Part shown: piece by piece, positions 12,001 through 21,000 of the stretch
Layout: every line of letters begins with the position of its first letter
Position numbering within the stretch: the first letter of the stretch is position 1
Assembly (NCBI GenBank): GCA_043822705.1
Contig: JBDRBK010000135.1
Span: 1 to 34,695, forward strand
DNA: 34,695 nt
DNA from: Fidelibacterota bacterium
GTDB lineage: Bacteria; Fidelibacterota; Marinisomatia; Marinisomatales; TCS56
Reading direction: 5' to 3'
Program-made: the position numbers

Positions 12001-15000
12001 GAAAAACATCGCCGGGAATATGAAGATTCTCTACTGAATCCAGCCCGGGATCTGGTTGTCGCCCTGGGTGCACGGTTGCGCCAGTTGTGCCCCGATATTG
12101 TCGCCGATCCGCGGGTCGACCGTTCCATTTTTAGGATCAATCGTGATGTCCGCTTCAGCAAGGACAAATCTCCTTATAAAACCCATCTGGGAATATTTTT
12201 CTGGGAAGGTCATGCCCCTAAAATAGAAAACTCAGGCTACTACTGGCATCTGGAAGCGCAGGAGCTGTTCTTTGGAGCCGGATTATATATTTTCCCCAAA
12301 TGGGCGCTGGAACGTTATCGCACTGCCGTCAGTGATGAGCAGAAGAACCTGAAATTGGCTGAAGCGATTGCCGGGGTCCGGGAACAGGGCGGCGACATCG
12401 GCGGTGAGCGCAGTAAACGTTTCCCGGTCGGCTATGGCCGGGATGTGACCGAACCGGAATTGCTACTGTATAAAGGCATCTACAGTCTATACCGGATAAG
12501 TGATTTTGATATGATCAGGAATAAAGACCTGGTCGAATTCAGTTACTCGATATTCCGGAAACTTGCTCCTGTGCATGAGTGGCTGCGTTCAATCCTTTGA
12601 TTCAATTCGATAACTGATTTGTCTGCCCCACAAAGCAGCAACAGTTCGCCCCGAACATACTCCACAAGGTGCCTTCCTTCGAGTGGGATTGATTTGTAAT
12701 TTATTTCCAATATTAAATGGTGGTGCCAATGATTACATGGGCAATTACACGCCTTCCGGCGGAAAACCTGGGACTGGGACTGACAACGGCGAATCTGGGA
12801 TCGCCTGATTACGCTGTGGCACTCCGGCAACACGCTGCCTATGTCGCTGCATTGAAGGTTATCGGACTGGAGGTCACGGTATTAGAACCGCTGCCGGATT
12901 TTCCTGACGCCCATTTCGTCGAAGATACGGCGGTCGTCTTTCCGGAACTGGCGGTCATCACCCGACCAGGTGCGACGGCGCGCCGGGGTGAAATTGAATC
13001 GATGGAACCGGTCCTGGCCCGCCACCGGCCCACGGTTCGGATAACGGCTCCTGGTACTTTGGACGGGGGTGACGTACTGACAATCGGCGACCGCGTGTAT
13101 GTCGGTCTGACCGATCGTACCAACCAGGCCGGATTCGAACAATTGCGGGACTTGTTGAAGCCCTACGGTTATAACTGCCACGCGATCCCGGTGGCGGCGG
13201 GTCTGCATCTGAAATCCAGCGTGAATTATGCCGGCAAAAACACCTTGCTGGTCACCGCAGCGCTGGCTGATTGTCCGGAATGGTCCGGTTATCAGCTGAT
13301 CGTGACTGCCGCCGGGGAGGAGTATGCCTGTAACACGTTGCTGGTTAATGACCATTTGCTCACCCCCGGTGGTTTTCCGAATACCAACCGTCAACTGGCG
13401 GTGCTGGAATTGCCGCTAATCAAGCTGGACATGAGTGAGATGCGCAAAATGGACGGCGGGTTGACCTGTCTGTCACTCCGATTTTAGCGATTGTAGGATG
13501 AGGCCAGCGCTATCTGTGCTCCTGCTGATCGTCACCAGCCAGTTACTGTCGGCAGGTCACTGGGAGGTTACATTGACATCCGGGGAGAAATTTCCTCGGG
13601 TAAATGGTCTGCGGCTGGACCAGACCATCCTCTATCTGGTGCCGGAAAACCCGGCCCCGGATGATTTGCCGATTCCGGTATATCTGGGAGATCTGAAAAC
13701 CGTCCGGCGCGTCCGGGATAACCGGTGTCTGACGTTGGTGGCCTGCGGCTGTTTTGGCCGGCTGCTGGGGCAGTTTGTCGTCCCGGAGTTCATTGACTTG
13801 AATGAAACCGGCAGGTTCGGCATCCGGGAAATGGGCTGGGCCGGTTCAATTGCCGGCAGCCTGCTGGCCCTGGCGGTGTCCGGCCGCCGGGTTGACCTCT
13901 CCCGCTGCGCCCTCGATGAACGGAAAATAATTATCGATAAATTTATTCTACGGGAACGATTTCGCTGATTGCGAATTACCTGCCCAAACATGATCAGACA
14001 TCGGAAATCCCCCGGCACGGTCGAGCTGCGCACGATCCGCGTGATGATCGCCATTTACTGCGGCCCGCATCACAAATCCGACACTGGTCTCTGCAGCGAC
14101 TGCCACGGACTGTTCGAATACGCCAGCGCCCGGCTGGATAATTGTCCTTTCGGTGCAGCCAAACCAACCTGTCAGAACTGCCCGATCCATTGCTATAAAC
14201 CGGAAGTGCGGGAGCAGGTGCGCGCGGTGATGCGCTTCGCCGGCCCCCGGATGTTGTGGCGCTACCCGTTGCTGACGATCCGGCATTTGTGGCATAATCG
14301 TAAACGCATACCGCTAAAAACCGGCAATTCCGTCGGTTCCGGTAGCGAAACAGGTTAAATCCGGACGGTCTGTTCCGGTTCATAGAAGGGTGCGGACAGG
14401 GAATATTTTGTCTATGCCGACGGGAGTGAAATTCTTGAGATATTCCGGTGATTGTATTGGAAGCGTGTGTTCAAAATGGTATAATTTCAAACAGGACATA
14501 CGGACTTTTAACAACTCAATACTGTTCATTAACAATAGGACTAAGAGATGAAGAGCGGAGCCTACAATGCCTTCGAAATGGCACAGGCGCAGTTTGACAA
14601 GGTAGCCGAATTGATGAATCTGGACGCCGGGACCAGGGCGCTGCTGCGTCGTCCCCTGCGGGAGTATCATTTCAGCATCCCGGTGCGCATGGATGACGGA
14701 CCTGTTCAGGTTTTTCAGGGCTTTCGGGTGCAGCATAATGATGCCCGCGGTCCGGGAAAGGGCGGGATTCGTTTCCATCCCATGGAAACAATCGATACCG
14801 TGCGCGCCCTGGCCACGTGGATGACCTGGAAAACGGCGGTCGTGGATATACCGCTGGGCGGCAGCAAGGGTGGTGTCGTCTGCGATCCCCATAATTTAAG
14901 CGACCGCGAACTGGAGCAGATATCCCGCAACTGGGTCCGCCAGATATCTCAGAACGTTGGTCCTTTATTGGATGTACCGGCCCCCGATGTGATGACGACC

Positions 15001-18000: not shown

Positions 18001-21000
18001 CAAGGAAGAAAAAAAATTACTCAAGGCCATCGCCGAACGGATCAGCAATTTTGTCATGCACCAACAGCTCAAGCAGATCAAGCAGGAGTTGAGTGAAGTC
18101 AGGGCCGGCCGGCGGAGGATGGATGACCGGGAAACACTGATCGTCACGGAATTGCTGTATCGCACCGATACCGATTTGTTCCTGCGGATTGCCCGCAAAA
18201 TGCTGAATTTTCTATGCCGCAAGGGCATTCCGGAAGCGGAAGCGATCCTGCACGACCTGAGTTCTGACAAACTGATCAGTAACAATGCCAGAATTCTGGG
18301 CTCTAATCGTCCCACCAAACCCAAGGCCAAGAAAAATATCATTGAATTAAGCAAACTGACGTTTGATATTGCCGGCCGTTTCCTCAGCGACGAGGATATC
18401 ATCGATCGCATCCAAAACTGGATTCACGAGGACAAAATCAATTTTTTGATCAAATCATTGAACGATCCGCACAGCACTATCGATGAAATTGCCGACGATT
18501 TTCGCCGCTTCCGGCAACTGGAAGTCCGGGAGAATATCCGGGTCTCGGAACATACCCTGCGCAGTATCCGGGTTCAGGCGATTCAACGGCTGTTGACCGA
18601 ACAGACCGGTTACGTCACGGTCGCCAAGGAATTCATTGAAATGGATGATCTGGCCGGTCTGATGGAGCGTCTGATTTATCCGGTCAACAGTCACGGTCAG
18701 TTGGGCGGCAAGGGCGCAGGGATGTTTCTGGCATCCCGGATCGTCAAGCGATTGAGCCGTAACTATCCCGGACTGAAAAACGTACGCACCCCCAAAACCT
18801 GGTACATCGCCTCCGATGGTCTGATCCGCTTTCTGTACCATAATGACTTGCAGGATATAGTCAATCAGAAATATAAGGATATCGACCAGATCCACCAGGA
18901 ATATCCCCAGATCATCGAGATTTTCAAGAATTCCAAATTTCCGCCCGAGATGGTGCAGAAGCTGGCGGTCGCGCTGGATGAATTAGGCGATGTGCCGATC
19001 ATTGTCCGCAGCTCCAGCCTGCTCGAAGACCGGCTGGGGTCGGCCTTTTCGGGCAAATACGAAAGTTTGTTTTTAGGCAACCAGGGCAACAAGAAGGACC
19101 GCCTGGCCGCCCTGCTGGACGCGATCGCTGAGGTTTATGCCTCGACTTTCTGTCCCGATGCCATTGAGTACCGGACCGAGCGCAATCTGCTCGATTCGCA
19201 AGAGCAGATGGGCGTCCTGATCCAGGAGGTGGTGGGTCGGCGGGTCGGGCCCTATTTTCTGCCAGCCTTCGGTGGCGTGGCCCTCAGCAACAATGAATTC
19301 CGCTGGTCCCATCGGATCAAGCGCGAGGATGGTCTGATTCGGCTCGCTCCGGGGCTGGGTACCCGGGCAGTGGACCGCCTCAGCGACGATTACCCGGTCC
19401 TGATCGCACCGGGCCAGCCCGGTCTCCGGGTCAACGTTTCGATCGACGAAATCGTGCGCTACTCGCCGAACAAGATCGATCTGATAAATCTGGAATCCAA
19501 TTCTTTCGAAACCGTCGATCTGAAAAAGTTTATCCGTGATTACGGCGAAGATTTTCCCCCGCTCCAGAATATGATTTCGATCCTCCGCGATAATCATCTG
19601 CGGCCGCCGTCCCTGCTCGACACCGATCTGACCGAGGTCGAGGTGGTGGCGACTTTTGACGGCCTGATCAAGAACACTTCCTTTGTGGCCGACATCCGTG
19701 AAATGCTGCTTGGGCTGCAGGACAGTTTGGGCTTTCCGGTGGATATTGAATTTGCCTCGGACGGTGAAAATTTCTATTTGCTGCAATGTCGGGCCCAGAG
19801 TTACAGCAAGCTTACGCAACCGACCGAGATACCCAAGAATATTGACGTAAAATCAATCCTGTTTTCAGCCAAACGCTATATCTCCAACGGCTACGTTCCG
19901 GAAATCACTCATATCGTGTATGTCGATCCCAACCGTTACAGCGAGATTGGTGAGCGCGATATCATGCTGCGGGTCGGAAGGGCGGTCAGCCGCCTGAATC
20001 TGGAACTGCCGAAGCGTAAATTTATCCTGATGGGTCCCGGTCGCTGGGGCAGCCGTGGCGATATCCGACTGGGGGTAAGCATCACCTATTCCGATATCAA
20101 TAATACGGCGGTCCTGATCGAAATCGCCCGTAAAAAAGGCAATTATCTGCCGGATCTTTCTTTCGGCACCCACTTTTTCCAGGATCTGGTCGAGTCGGAA
20201 ATTCGCTACCTGCCGCTCTATCCCGATGATCAGGGAATCCAATTCAACGATGCCTTTCTGCTGGAATCGCCCAGCATTCTGACCGCTCTGCTGCCGGGCT
20301 ACGAGGCCTTGCAGGATATCATTCGGGTGATCGACGTTCCCCAGGTCACCGGGGGACAGATACTGCGTATTTACATGAATGCCGACCGCGATGAGGCACT
20401 GGCCGTTTTGGTTTCCAAAGATAACTGACCGGTTTGCCCGTCGGTATGAAGGGTTGTTGTGGTTTGCGGCGTAGCGCAAACCGGCACAAGTGCCCGGTAG
20501 GTGCGAAAAATTATTGTCAAATAACCATAACTGCGGATTCACTTAAATTCCCAAGGGACTGCCTGATGAAATTGAAAATATCGAAACTGATTGTGGCCGC
20601 TGCTGCACCGCTGCTTTGGCAGAATTTTGCGTTGGCCGCGGATAGTCCGGCCGGACAAGCGGCGCCGGAATTGGTGTTTACCGTGGATATGAGCGAAAAC
20701 CGCTGTCTGCTGGGAATCTGGCTCGAGCAACCCGCCGGCGAATTTGTGGAGACGGTTTTTGTCAGTAATAAACTGGGGCAGAAGGGCCTGGCGAACCGGG
20801 GCGGCGCCATTGATGATAAAAAAGGCGGCTCCCGGATCAGTTCGCTGCCGGTCTGGGCGTACCACCGCGGCATTGATTACGGTAATGGAAATTTCAACCC
20901 ACCCAAGGATCGGCCCCTGCCGGACGCCGTTTCCGGGGCCACGCCCCGGGCCGGTGAATTTACCTGGTCCTATCGGCCGGAGACGGCGCTGCCTTATGGC

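What a model noticed while it worked through the whole genome (the two positions that open the first line are those of the whole stretch)
14548..20428. Three receiver/sensor-fused dikinase-fold proteins lacking the pyruvate domain sit beside both glutamate dehydrogenase g [...]
g02093 and g02094 (C135) and g01131 (C73:3330-6329), annotated as PEP/pyruvate-binding proteins, keep the PEP-synthase ATP-grasp domain and a C-terminal phosphohistidine swivel domain (G-S/T-H-F-F) but have no pyruvate-binding barrel; g01131 has two receiver-type domains in front. Each lies next to a gdh gene, so they are candidate dikinase-derived regulatory kinases of glutamate dehydrogenase, not PEP synthases.
Evidence so far: Pfam shows only PPDK_N plus a weak receiver. 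Full model matches rifampin phosphotransferase, PEP synthase and PleD receivers; the C-terminal domain alone (pLDDT 94) has the PPDK phosphoryl-carrier, RPH and enzyme I His domains as top hits, Z 5.9-7.2; the His is invariant in 31 of 31. Present in 47 of 61 phylum genomes; gdh seen within 1.5-5 kb in 16 of 31 relative loci; PPDK_N lies within two genes of GDH in 115 of 232 order genomes and 8418 genomes overall. Searches 38, 39, 93, 94 showed no description.
(Added by a program. Inside this text positions count along the whole contig: contig position 1 is position 1 of the stretch shown here. "Call 12" and the like, gene names such as g00115 and contig names such as C1 are that model's own, and its searches are not shown. 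The text may have been shortened before it was handed on; [...] marks where a part breaks off. The agent that wrote the report below was given it as the finding of a first reader that could run no searches.)

Follow-up and report, generated by a model that had tools for sequence, protein, structure and literature searches.

The report
Dikinase-like regulators beside glutamate dehydrogenase
Next to each of this bacterium's two glutamate dehydrogenase genes lie uncharacterised ATP-using enzymes that look like PEP synthase without its pyruvate-binding half; they belong to a large family that tracks this central nitrogen enzyme across several phyla and probably helps switch it on or off.

Summary
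Confirmed. The window holds gdh (class II, 14548-15834), A587 (15904-17667) and B922 (17660-20428); a third paralogue, C999, lies tail-to-tail with the class I gdhA on C73. All keep the dikinase ATP-grasp residues and a His-bearing tail. The A587 model superposes through both domains on PEP synthase, PPDK and RPH (Z 26, 18, 26). There is no pyruvate barrel; the genome has a separate true PPDK. Correction: A587 has no sensor; B922 has a GAF fold; C999 has one dead and one intact receiver. In three phyla, C-type genes mostly sit beside class I GDH and B-type beside class II; 13 genomes with only the short B type have class II GDH and no class I. Against 'GDH kinase' as the whole story: D-type genes also abut glutamate synthase, some C genes lie far from gdh, and no acceptor residue was found. 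Best reading (0.55): phosphohistidine signalling enzymes, VadK-like in logic, that control GDH post-translationally. Direct phosphorylation is about 0.3. The window is a reduced cassette without the nucleotidyltransferase and phosphoesterase of relatives. Not found in print; this scan noted the family before on other DNA.

The parts
14548..15834 (+). Glutamate dehydrogenase, class II (GdhA_Arch-like, below the equivalog cut-off); member of a distinct GDH clade that travels with the A+B gene pair
   Evidence: Pfam PF00208/PF02812; NCBIfam NF040817 479 bits against a cut-off of 750; in a 31-row clade with 100% local support; all 13 phylum genomes with a GDH at 70% identity or more also carry the long B gene
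15904..17667 (+). A587 (g02093): dikinase ATP-grasp (about aa 26-404) followed directly by the His-bearing domain (aa 412-587); no sensor; derived from the C type by loss of the receiver region
   Evidence: PPDK_N 35-407; AF2 pLDDT 92.3, pTM 0.92; structure matches; A clade nested in the C clade
17137..17664 (+). His domain of A587: swivel-like, with family-specific G-x-G-R-W-G and S-x-G-[ST]-H-F-F motifs
   Evidence: Aligns with the phosphohistidine domains of 2OLS, 1DIK/1KBL and 5HV3 in whole-model superpositions; sequence-profile match to swivel domains not significant, though His falls on His
17464..17466 (+). His521 of A587, predicted phospho-carrier
   Evidence: At the start of helix 520-528 in the model; invariant in alignment A3 of 99 rows
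17660..20428 (+). B922 (g02094): GAF sensor, all-helical domain, ATP-grasp, His domain; lacks the C-terminal nucleotidyltransferase of its close relatives
   Evidence: AF2 pLDDT 84.8; PPDK_N 347-727; the 13 closest phylum relatives all have a further Pol-beta-type domain
17687..18097 (+). GAF-fold domain of B922 (aa 10-146), ligand unknown
   Evidence: VIA Z 12.9, rmsd 2.2, 123 aligned to 3cit; Nlh1, NifA and PtsP GAFs at Z 11-12 among many similar rows; no Pfam GAF match
18131..18667 (+). All-helical domain of B922 (aa 158-336), shared with short B proteins; candidate docking domain
   Evidence: Helical in the model; no invariant nucleophile in 52 B rows; Atlas look-alikes only within this family
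20171..20173 (+). His838 of B922, predicted phospho-carrier
   Evidence: Invariant in alignment A4 of 53 rows; motif position
14457..14485 (+). Sigma-70-like consensus match upstream of gdh (weak)
   Evidence: 10 of 12 matches with TG; 8 sites found against 4.5 +/- 2.2 in shuffles, so not evidence of function

Best explanation
A587, B922 and C999 belong to one large, uncharacterised family of dikinase-derived signalling enzymes. Inferred steps: (1) the ATP-grasp domain binds ATP and, as in PEP synthase, passes the beta-phosphate to the tail His, releasing AMP and Pi; (2) having no small-molecule domain, the phospho-His acts on a protein, and gene context points to the cell's glutamate dehydrogenase, either by phosphorylating it or by binding it in a phospho-state-dependent way as proposed for VadK; (3) N-terminal modules (GAF in B922, receiver pair plus DUF5752 in C999, a KaiC-like domain in the D type) gate or aim the activity according to nitrogen or energy status. 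In the window, A587 and B922 work as one unit on the class II GDH; C999 serves the class I GDH. Shown: architecture, conserved catalytic residues, fold, gene linkage. Inferred: autophosphorylation, the target and the signal. Of the 0.55, about 0.3 is direct phosphotransfer to GDH and 0.25 binding without transfer.
For: ATP-grasp residues K39, R130, E379, Q398, R/K400 conserved in all five subtypes (91 of 91 for K, R, E). Superposition covers both domains: 362 residues on PEP synthase 2OLS 7-466 (Z 26.1, rmsd 4.3), 345 on PPDK 1DIK 7-510 (Z 18.3, rmsd 5.7), 340 on RPH 5HV3 6-864 (Z 26.3, rmsd 3.4), against 230-274 where only the ATP-grasp fits. Linkage: own phylum, long B 12 of 14 and short B 12 of 13 beside class II GDH, C 60 of 121 within 6 kb of class I GDH, 53 of them convergent, so not mere co-transcription; Desulfocapsa's phylum 20 of 28 genes; Planctomycetota 15 of 20 loci; metagenome loci 43 of 79; between two GDH genes in Parabacteroides and Phocaeicola. 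Partner swap: the 13 short-B-only genomes have class II GDH 13 of 13 and class I 0 of 13. A-B fusions of 1523-1654 aa exist. Precedent: VadK, a PPDK without pyruvate domain, autophosphorylates on His and interacts with enzymes encoded nearby (PMC13400623).
Against: No activity or binding data. GDH occurs without the family in 27 of 201 phylum genomes, 12 of them one genus of about 1 Mb. 31 of 121 C genes have their class I GDH on another contig or far away, about 1 Mb in single-contig G017; 9 of 26 well-flanked metagenome loci and Prevotella F0039 show no gdh. D-type genes pair with either GDH class, and 4 of the 8 GDH-less genes in Desulfocapsa's phylum abut glutamate synthase instead, which fits a metabolite or pathway-level role. 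Seven C genes lie within 6 kb of a class II GDH, so pairing is not strict. No GDH residue marking kinase-associated enzymes could be singled out. The tail has no significant sequence match to swivel domains. For VadK itself, phosphotransfer to the partner is not claimed in the sections read.
Confidence: 0.55

Rival explanations
1. Small-molecule dikinase of the glutamate / 2-oxoglutarate node: the enlarged His domain, or a partner protein, supplies the second site, and the enzyme phosphorylates a metabolite (2-oxoglutarate, Glu or Gln); the optional nucleotidyltransferase and phosphoesterase process the product.
For: Closest folds are small-molecule dikinases RPH and HpeI. Invariant R481, W482, E506, F522 beside the His could form a ligand pocket. 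Neighbours include glutamate synthase, NrpR and, in L101, a 2-oxoacid:ferredoxin oxidoreductase pair read from sequence. Nucleotidyltransferase plus phosphoesterase in relatives. A kinase-nucleotidyltransferase-hydrolase route from glutamine is known in Campylobacter (Cj1418/Cj1416; recalled).
Against: No substrate domain between ATP-grasp and His domain. A metabolite enzyme would not be expected to change subtype with GDH class. No other pathway gene is conserved around C or short B genes.
Confidence: 0.2
2. Self-contained phosphorelay: the phospho-His feeds a receiver Asp (in cis for C999), so the protein is a non-canonical hybrid histidine kinase, and the output is some nitrogen regulator other than GDH; gdh linkage reflects a shared regulon.
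For: Receiver 2 keeps E174, D175, D244, S278, K297 in 91, 85, 90, 86 and 90 of 91 rows. In G063, G150 and G131 the searches found one HisKA protein and only two receiver proteins, PorX and this one, and the receiver is intact in all 10 histidine-kinase-poor genomes checked.
Against: A, B and D types have the same catalytic core and no receiver, and no receiver gene is conserved beside them. Acetyl-phosphate or cross-talk from the single kinase could supply the Asp. Those genomes are 95-96% complete. His-to-Asp transfer is compatible with the best explanation if GDH is the output.
Confidence: 0.13
3. Split or partner-dependent PEP synthase that feeds gluconeogenesis during growth on amino acids.
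For: Fold and residues of the first two PEP synthase domains; public names such as 'PEP/pyruvate-binding domain-containing protein'.
Against: The genome's only pyruvate-binding barrel is inside a complete PPDK; far below PEP synthase cut-offs (21 and 55 bits against 740); no barrel gene recurs beside the family.
Confidence: 0.03
4. Writer-eraser system built on nucleotidylation (GlnD/GlnE logic): the nucleotidyltransferase modifies GDH and the dikinase modules only sense; the window would then be a decaying remnant.
For: Intact GS-x-DxD nucleotidyltransferase in 13 of 13 closest relatives; phosphoesterase within 600 bases behind 21 of 34 such genes and behind 0 of 24 B genes without the domain (after correcting one mis-flagged row).
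Against: C, A, short B and D types lack the domain yet keep all catalytic residues; B922 and A587 show no decay; other long B proteins lack it too (L080, P0232, P0236).
Confidence: 0.06

Closest known systems
VadK (Rv1127c), PPDK-derived histidine autokinase (PMC13400623; abstract, passages, sections 16 and 18 read)
   Same: ATP-grasp plus His domain without pyruvate domain; regulatory role on metabolic enzymes encoded nearby
   Different: VadK is described as a truncated PPDK acting on the methylcitrate cycle. This family is closer in fold to RPH and PEP synthase than to PPDK, has an enlarged His domain that Pfam PF00391 misses, carries sensor domains and tracks GDH. Sequences were not compared directly.
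PEP synthase (PpsA) / pyruvate phosphate dikinase (PPDK)
   Same: First two domains in the same order and docked arrangement; ATP-binding residues kept
   Different: No PEP/pyruvate barrel; His motif G-[ST]-H-F-F instead of T-S-H-A-A; added sensors
Rifampin phosphotransferase (RPH) and related small-molecule dikinases (HpeI; PigC/RedH)
   Same: Best structural match of the ATP-grasp (Z 26.3); His domain at the C-terminus
   Different: No substrate-binding domain between ATP-grasp and His domain
Nitrogen PTS enzyme I (PtsP, EI-Ntr; properties recalled)
   Same: GAF sensor, helical domain and phosphohistidine swivel that passes phosphate to a protein; nitrogen link
   Different: EI-Ntr takes phosphate from PEP through a barrel domain; here the donor domain is an ATP-grasp; no HPr/NPr gene recurs nearby
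GlnD / GlnE nucleotidyltransferase regulators (recalled)
   Same: Relatives of B922 carry a Pol-beta-type nucleotidyltransferase and a neighbouring phosphoesterase
   Different: Both are missing from this genome; the family's constant core is the dikinase module

Membership tests
PEP synthase / PPDK | N-terminal ATP-grasp with Lys, Arg, Glu, Gln, Arg nucleotide residues | tested here: met
   PF01326 over cut-off; residues conserved; role of the residues recalled from PPDK
PEP synthase / PPDK | Phosphohistidine swivel domain (fold, His at helix start) | tested here: met
   Whole-model superposition through the His domains of 2OLS, 1DIK, 1KBL, 5HV3; His521 at helix start; domain not folded alone here
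PEP synthase / PPDK | Swivel domain by sequence (PF00391, T-S-H motif) | tested here: inconclusive
   No PF00391 match in these proteins; hhalign probability 0.4%, E 0.14, His in register
PEP synthase / PPDK | C-terminal PEP/pyruvate-binding barrel (PF02896) | tested here: not met
   Proteins end 66-84 residues after the His; the only PF02896 match in the genome is the true PPDK
RPH-type three-domain small-molecule dikinases | Substrate-binding domain between ATP-grasp and His domain | tested here: not met
   His domain follows the ATP-grasp within about 10 residues; NF041857 17-39 bits against 999
VadK-type regulatory dikinase | ATP-grasp plus His domain, no pyruvate domain | tested here: met
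   definition from PMC13400623
VadK-type regulatory dikinase | Mg-ATP-dependent His autophosphorylation | not testable with these tools
   Needs purified protein
VadK-type regulatory dikinase | Interaction with the neighbouring metabolic enzyme | not tested
VadK-type regulatory dikinase | Orthology to Rv1127c | not tested
   No direct sequence comparison; fold ranks RPH and PEP synthase above PPDK
Two-component hybrid histidine kinase | HisKA and HATPase_c domains | tested here: not met
   No such Pfam match in A587, B922 or C999
Response-regulator receiver (C999 domain 2) | Acidic pair, phospho-Asp, Ser/Thr, Lys | tested here: met
   E174 91/91, D175 85/91, D244 90/91, S/T278 90/91, K297 90/91
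Response-regulator receiver (C999 domain 1) | Phospho-acceptor Asp | tested here: not met
   Position 86 is Met in 58 and Thr in 13 of 86 rows; no Asp among the five commonest residues
EI-Ntr (PtsP) | GAF plus swivel plus PEP barrel | tested here: not met
   GAF fold present in B922, barrel absent
GlnD/GlnE-like nucleotidyltransferase regulator | Pol-beta nucleotidyltransferase domain | tested here: not met
   Absent from B922; best tblastn hit in the genome E 0.07; present in relatives

The most novel reading that the evidence does not exclude
These are protein dikinases: enzymes that spend ATP to AMP and hand its beta-phosphate, through a swivelling phosphohistidine, to glutamate dehydrogenase (and, in the C type, to their own receiver Asp). 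That would be a new chemistry of protein phosphorylation and a widespread, unrecognised switch on ammonium assimilation, possibly the trans-acting factor reported for Bacteroides GDH in 1996.
Probability: 0.3. Interest if true: 0.92.

Novelty: new variant of a known kind. Interest (0 to 1): 0.76.

Why it matters
GDH joins carbon and nitrogen metabolism. The family has 2364 clusters at 50% identity (many are fragments), is kept even in 1.6-2 Mb genomes with almost no other signalling proteins, occurs in gut Bacteroidales and is labelled as a PEP/pyruvate-binding protein, which can mislead metabolic reconstructions. If it controls GDH it is a post-translational switch comparable in reach to the glutamine synthetase cascade. 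[quoted passage not shown]

Tried and rejected
Complex prediction of C999 domains with class I GDH: tool not available, no result. Sequence search of solved structures with the His-domain profile: nothing below E 0.04; A587 gave only weak RPH hits. hhalign of the tail against 10 swivel domains: not significant. Wide fold search of whole models was filled by ATP-grasp or GAF rows, so the tail and the B helical domain were barely tested there. Atlas searches returned only this family. GDH residues differing between kinase-linked and kinase-less genomes (E54, R76, T119, P121, D130, W391 in class I): one lineage per class, inconclusive. Distance correlation r 0.70 over 59 C/GDH-I pairs: expected from shared ancestry, not used. 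Sequencing runs: no RNA holder listed; no reads laid. Promoter and terminator scan: within chance. Split PEP synthase rejected. Literature: ten searches found no description of this family; two further papers checked by term search did not mention it (PMC2995071, PMC3281104). Baggio and Morrison 1996 is not held. The library lacks most subscription journals, and supplements were not searched, so a mention in Bacteroides fitness or proteomics tables cannot be excluded.
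Full report
Observation. The window is contig C135 of a 3.34-Mb genome (93% complete) whose homologues are named Marinimicrobia / Fidelibacterota. Three co-oriented ORFs fill 14548-20428: a class II glutamate dehydrogenase (428 aa), A587 and B922, with a 69-base gap and an 8-base overlap. A third paralogue, C999, lies at C73:3330-6329, tail to tail with a class I NADP-GDH. 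A third ELFV-family gene on C102 is only 26% identical to the window GDH and has no paralogue beside it; it looks like leucine dehydrogenase (my reading). The genome has a complete PPDK on C154 that accounts for its only pyruvate-barrel and Pfam swivel matches, so the three proteins are not needed as PEP synthases.

Anatomy. A587 folds with high confidence (pLDDT 92.3, pTM 0.92). Foldseek and VIA rank RPH, HpeI, PEP synthase and PPDK first. In the second look the whole model fits PEP synthase 2OLS 7-466 (362 aligned, Z 26.1, rmsd 4.3), PPDK 1DIK 7-510 (345, Z 18.3, rmsd 5.7) and RPH 5HV3 6-864 (340, Z 26.3, rmsd 3.4), whereas ATP-grasp-only fits align 230-274 residues. The tail therefore occupies the place of the phosphohistidine domain docked on the nucleotide site, and His521 starts a helix in a beta-alpha-beta-alpha-beta run. 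Sequence profiles do not confirm this (probability 0.4%, His in register), and I could not fold the tail alone. B922 (pLDDT 84.8) adds a GAF fold (Z 12.9) and a helical domain without any invariant nucleophile in 52 rows. C999 has a pseudo-receiver, an intact receiver and a weak DUF5752 match. The His is present in 91 of 91 C rows, 99 of 99 A/C rows and 53 of 53 B rows. Many rows were found with a profile or pattern containing the His motif; the 39 own-phylum rows found with full-length B922 were not, and all 39 have it. The 189-row count was selected by the GGK and His motifs and is circular for those.

Family. The tail profile finds 2364 clusters at 50% identity. The tree of 155 of 189 cores (FastTree) gives two deep clades: C plus A, and B plus D. 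A is nested in C, and its nearest sisters (L068, L075) still carry the receivers. D has an N-terminal domain shared with a regulator that has a weak KaiC match (E 0.002). Variants include A-B fusions (P0121-P0123), GAF-repeat C proteins and a doubled D-like protein. All 13 closest own-phylum relatives of B922 end in a Pol-beta nucleotidyltransferase. A metallophosphoesterase (PF00149) follows within 600 bases in 21 of 34 such genes with at least 300 bases of flank and in 0 of 24 B genes without the domain (L080 was mis-flagged by my pattern and moved by hand). Neither was found in this genome. The window is thus a reduced gdh-A-B core. The phosphoesterase lead came from earlier scan notes.

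Link to GDH. In 201 genomes of the phylum the family is in 166, class I GDH in 162 and a class II match in 47. Among the 150 listed family matches (54 were not listed): long B 12 of 14 and short B 12 of 13 lie beside class II GDH, the three misses lying near contig ends; both listed A genes do too. Of 121 C matches, 54 are within 6 kb of class I only, 6 of both, 1 of class II only, 31 have class I elsewhere, and for 29 class I was not among the 150 listed rows (tables transcribed by hand). Of the 60 C-class I pairs, 53 are convergent. By genome: all 13 with a GDH at least 70% identical to the window's have long B; the 13 short-B-only genomes, from three families, have class II and no class I match; 139 of 153 other carriers have class I; 27 genomes have GDH without the family, 12 of them one small-genome genus; 12 have the family without a GDH match. 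These genomes are kin, so the counts are not independent events. In the phylum of Desulfocapsa, 24 of 121 genomes carry it; 20 of 28 genes have GDH within about 6 kb (C with class I 2 of 2, short B with class II 6 of 6, D with class I 10 and class II 2); 4 of the other 8 abut glutamate synthase genes, seven GDH loci also hold a glutamate-synthase-domain protein, and two hold NrpR. In Planctomycetota, 18 of 101 genomes carry it and 15 of 20 fetched loci hold GDH (C with class I 4 of 4, B with class II 7 of 7, one divergent core with class II, D mixed). Of 79 metagenome loci, 43 hold GDH, and 17 of the 26 with 2 kb on both sides; this set is biased to A-like genes. In Parabacteroides distasonis and Phocaeicola massiliensis the C gene is divergent from one GDH and faces a second; in Prevotella F0039 none lies within 8 kb.

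A lead on the receiver. Three streamlined relatives (G063, G150, G131; 95-96% complete) gave one HisKA match and two receiver matches each: PorX (NF052313 over cut-off) and the C protein. The single kinase is a roughly 390-aa protein that I take for PorY (inferred; no named model matched). The C receiver is intact in all 10 kinase-poor genomes checked. Its phosphate may thus come from its own His, from acetyl-phosphate or from cross-talk. A, B and D types show that a receiver is not the family's general acceptor.

Mechanism. By analogy with PEP synthase, the ATP-grasp would load the His with the beta-phosphate of ATP. With no small-molecule domain, and with N-terminal modules that change while the GDH link stays, the most economical reading is a signalling enzyme acting on GDH (0.55: direct transfer about 0.3, phospho-state-dependent binding about 0.25). 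A metabolite kinase of the glutamate node (0.2), a relay with another output (0.13), a nucleotidylation system (0.06) and a split PEP synthase (0.03) remain.

Known relatives and novelty. VadK is the nearest functional precedent: PPDK without pyruvate domain, His422 autophosphorylation shown by mass spectrometry, interaction with methylcitrate-cycle enzymes, and a binding-based model (PMC13400623; abstract, passages and sections 16 and 18 read; lead from an earlier scan note). The present family works like it on paper but fails membership of PEP synthase, PPDK, RPH and classical histidine kinases, and its orthology to VadK was not tested. Ten searches found no description. PMC4539542 (passages) states that the B. 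fragilis NAD(P)H-GDH is inhibited at high organic nitrogen and lists Baggio and Morrison 1996, whose title reports trans-acting gene(s) downstream of gdhA; I saw only that citation. That a family member lies near gdhA in B. thetaiotaomicron, and that B. fragilis GDH is reversibly inactivated in vivo, are recalled, not checked; in P. distasonis other genes lie between, so the 1996 factor may be something else. This scan has reported the family on other DNA many times; those notes are not independent support.

Verdict.

Noticed in passing
G000:C73 (L001:3330-7739): C999 and class I gdhA are convergent, with an inverted repeat between them that looks like a shared terminator; upstream lie a ComF-like gene, pgk and tpi (read from sequence), an order also seen in L096 and L236.
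   Followed up: partly
window 15241-15290 (GDH aa ~232-248): The window GDH has an unusual 'AVSCWD' stretch after the Rossmann motif; cofactor preference of this cassette-specific clade is open.
   Followed up: no
G000 whole genome: No tblastn match (E 1e-8) to two glutamate synthase queries, while a glutamine synthetase motif is present on C190; GDH may be the main glutamate source. Genome 93% complete.
   Followed up: partly
L134, L138, L139, L147, L149, L150, L153: A 520-620 aa protein with a partial Glu_synthase (FMN) match recurs beside the kinase and GDH in Desulfocapsa's phylum.
   Followed up: no
L134:3071-4378, L137:12310-13617: An HTH-cupin regulator shares its N-terminal, weakly KaiC-like domain with D-type kinases and lies near them.
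   Followed up: partly
L233-L235, L223-L232: PorX passes its NCBIfam cut-off in Marinisomatota, and a conserved ~390-aa kinase is the only HisKA match in several small genomes.
   Followed up: partly
L220 (NZ_OY725790.1) 10988-15715: In P. distasonis the second GDH gene is followed by RapZ-like, nucleotidyltransferase and endonuclease/phosphatase genes before the convergent kinase gene.
   Followed up: no
window 9300-11693 (-): 797-aa protein with a type IX secretion C-terminal sorting domain and no other Pfam match; the adjacent 479-aa ORF 7846-9285 has none.
   Followed up: no
window 1310-7205 (-): Fatty-acid beta-oxidation cluster (TetR, acyl-CoA dehydrogenase, thiolase, 3-hydroxyacyl-CoA dehydrogenase); ordinary.
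   Followed up: no
window 12717-13487 (+): Dimethylarginine dimethylaminohydrolase-like amidinotransferase about 1 kb upstream of gdh; not seen as a recurring neighbour.
   Followed up: no
P0154, P0195, P0192: C-type proteins with tandem copies of the B-type GAF-like domain in front of the receivers.
   Followed up: partly
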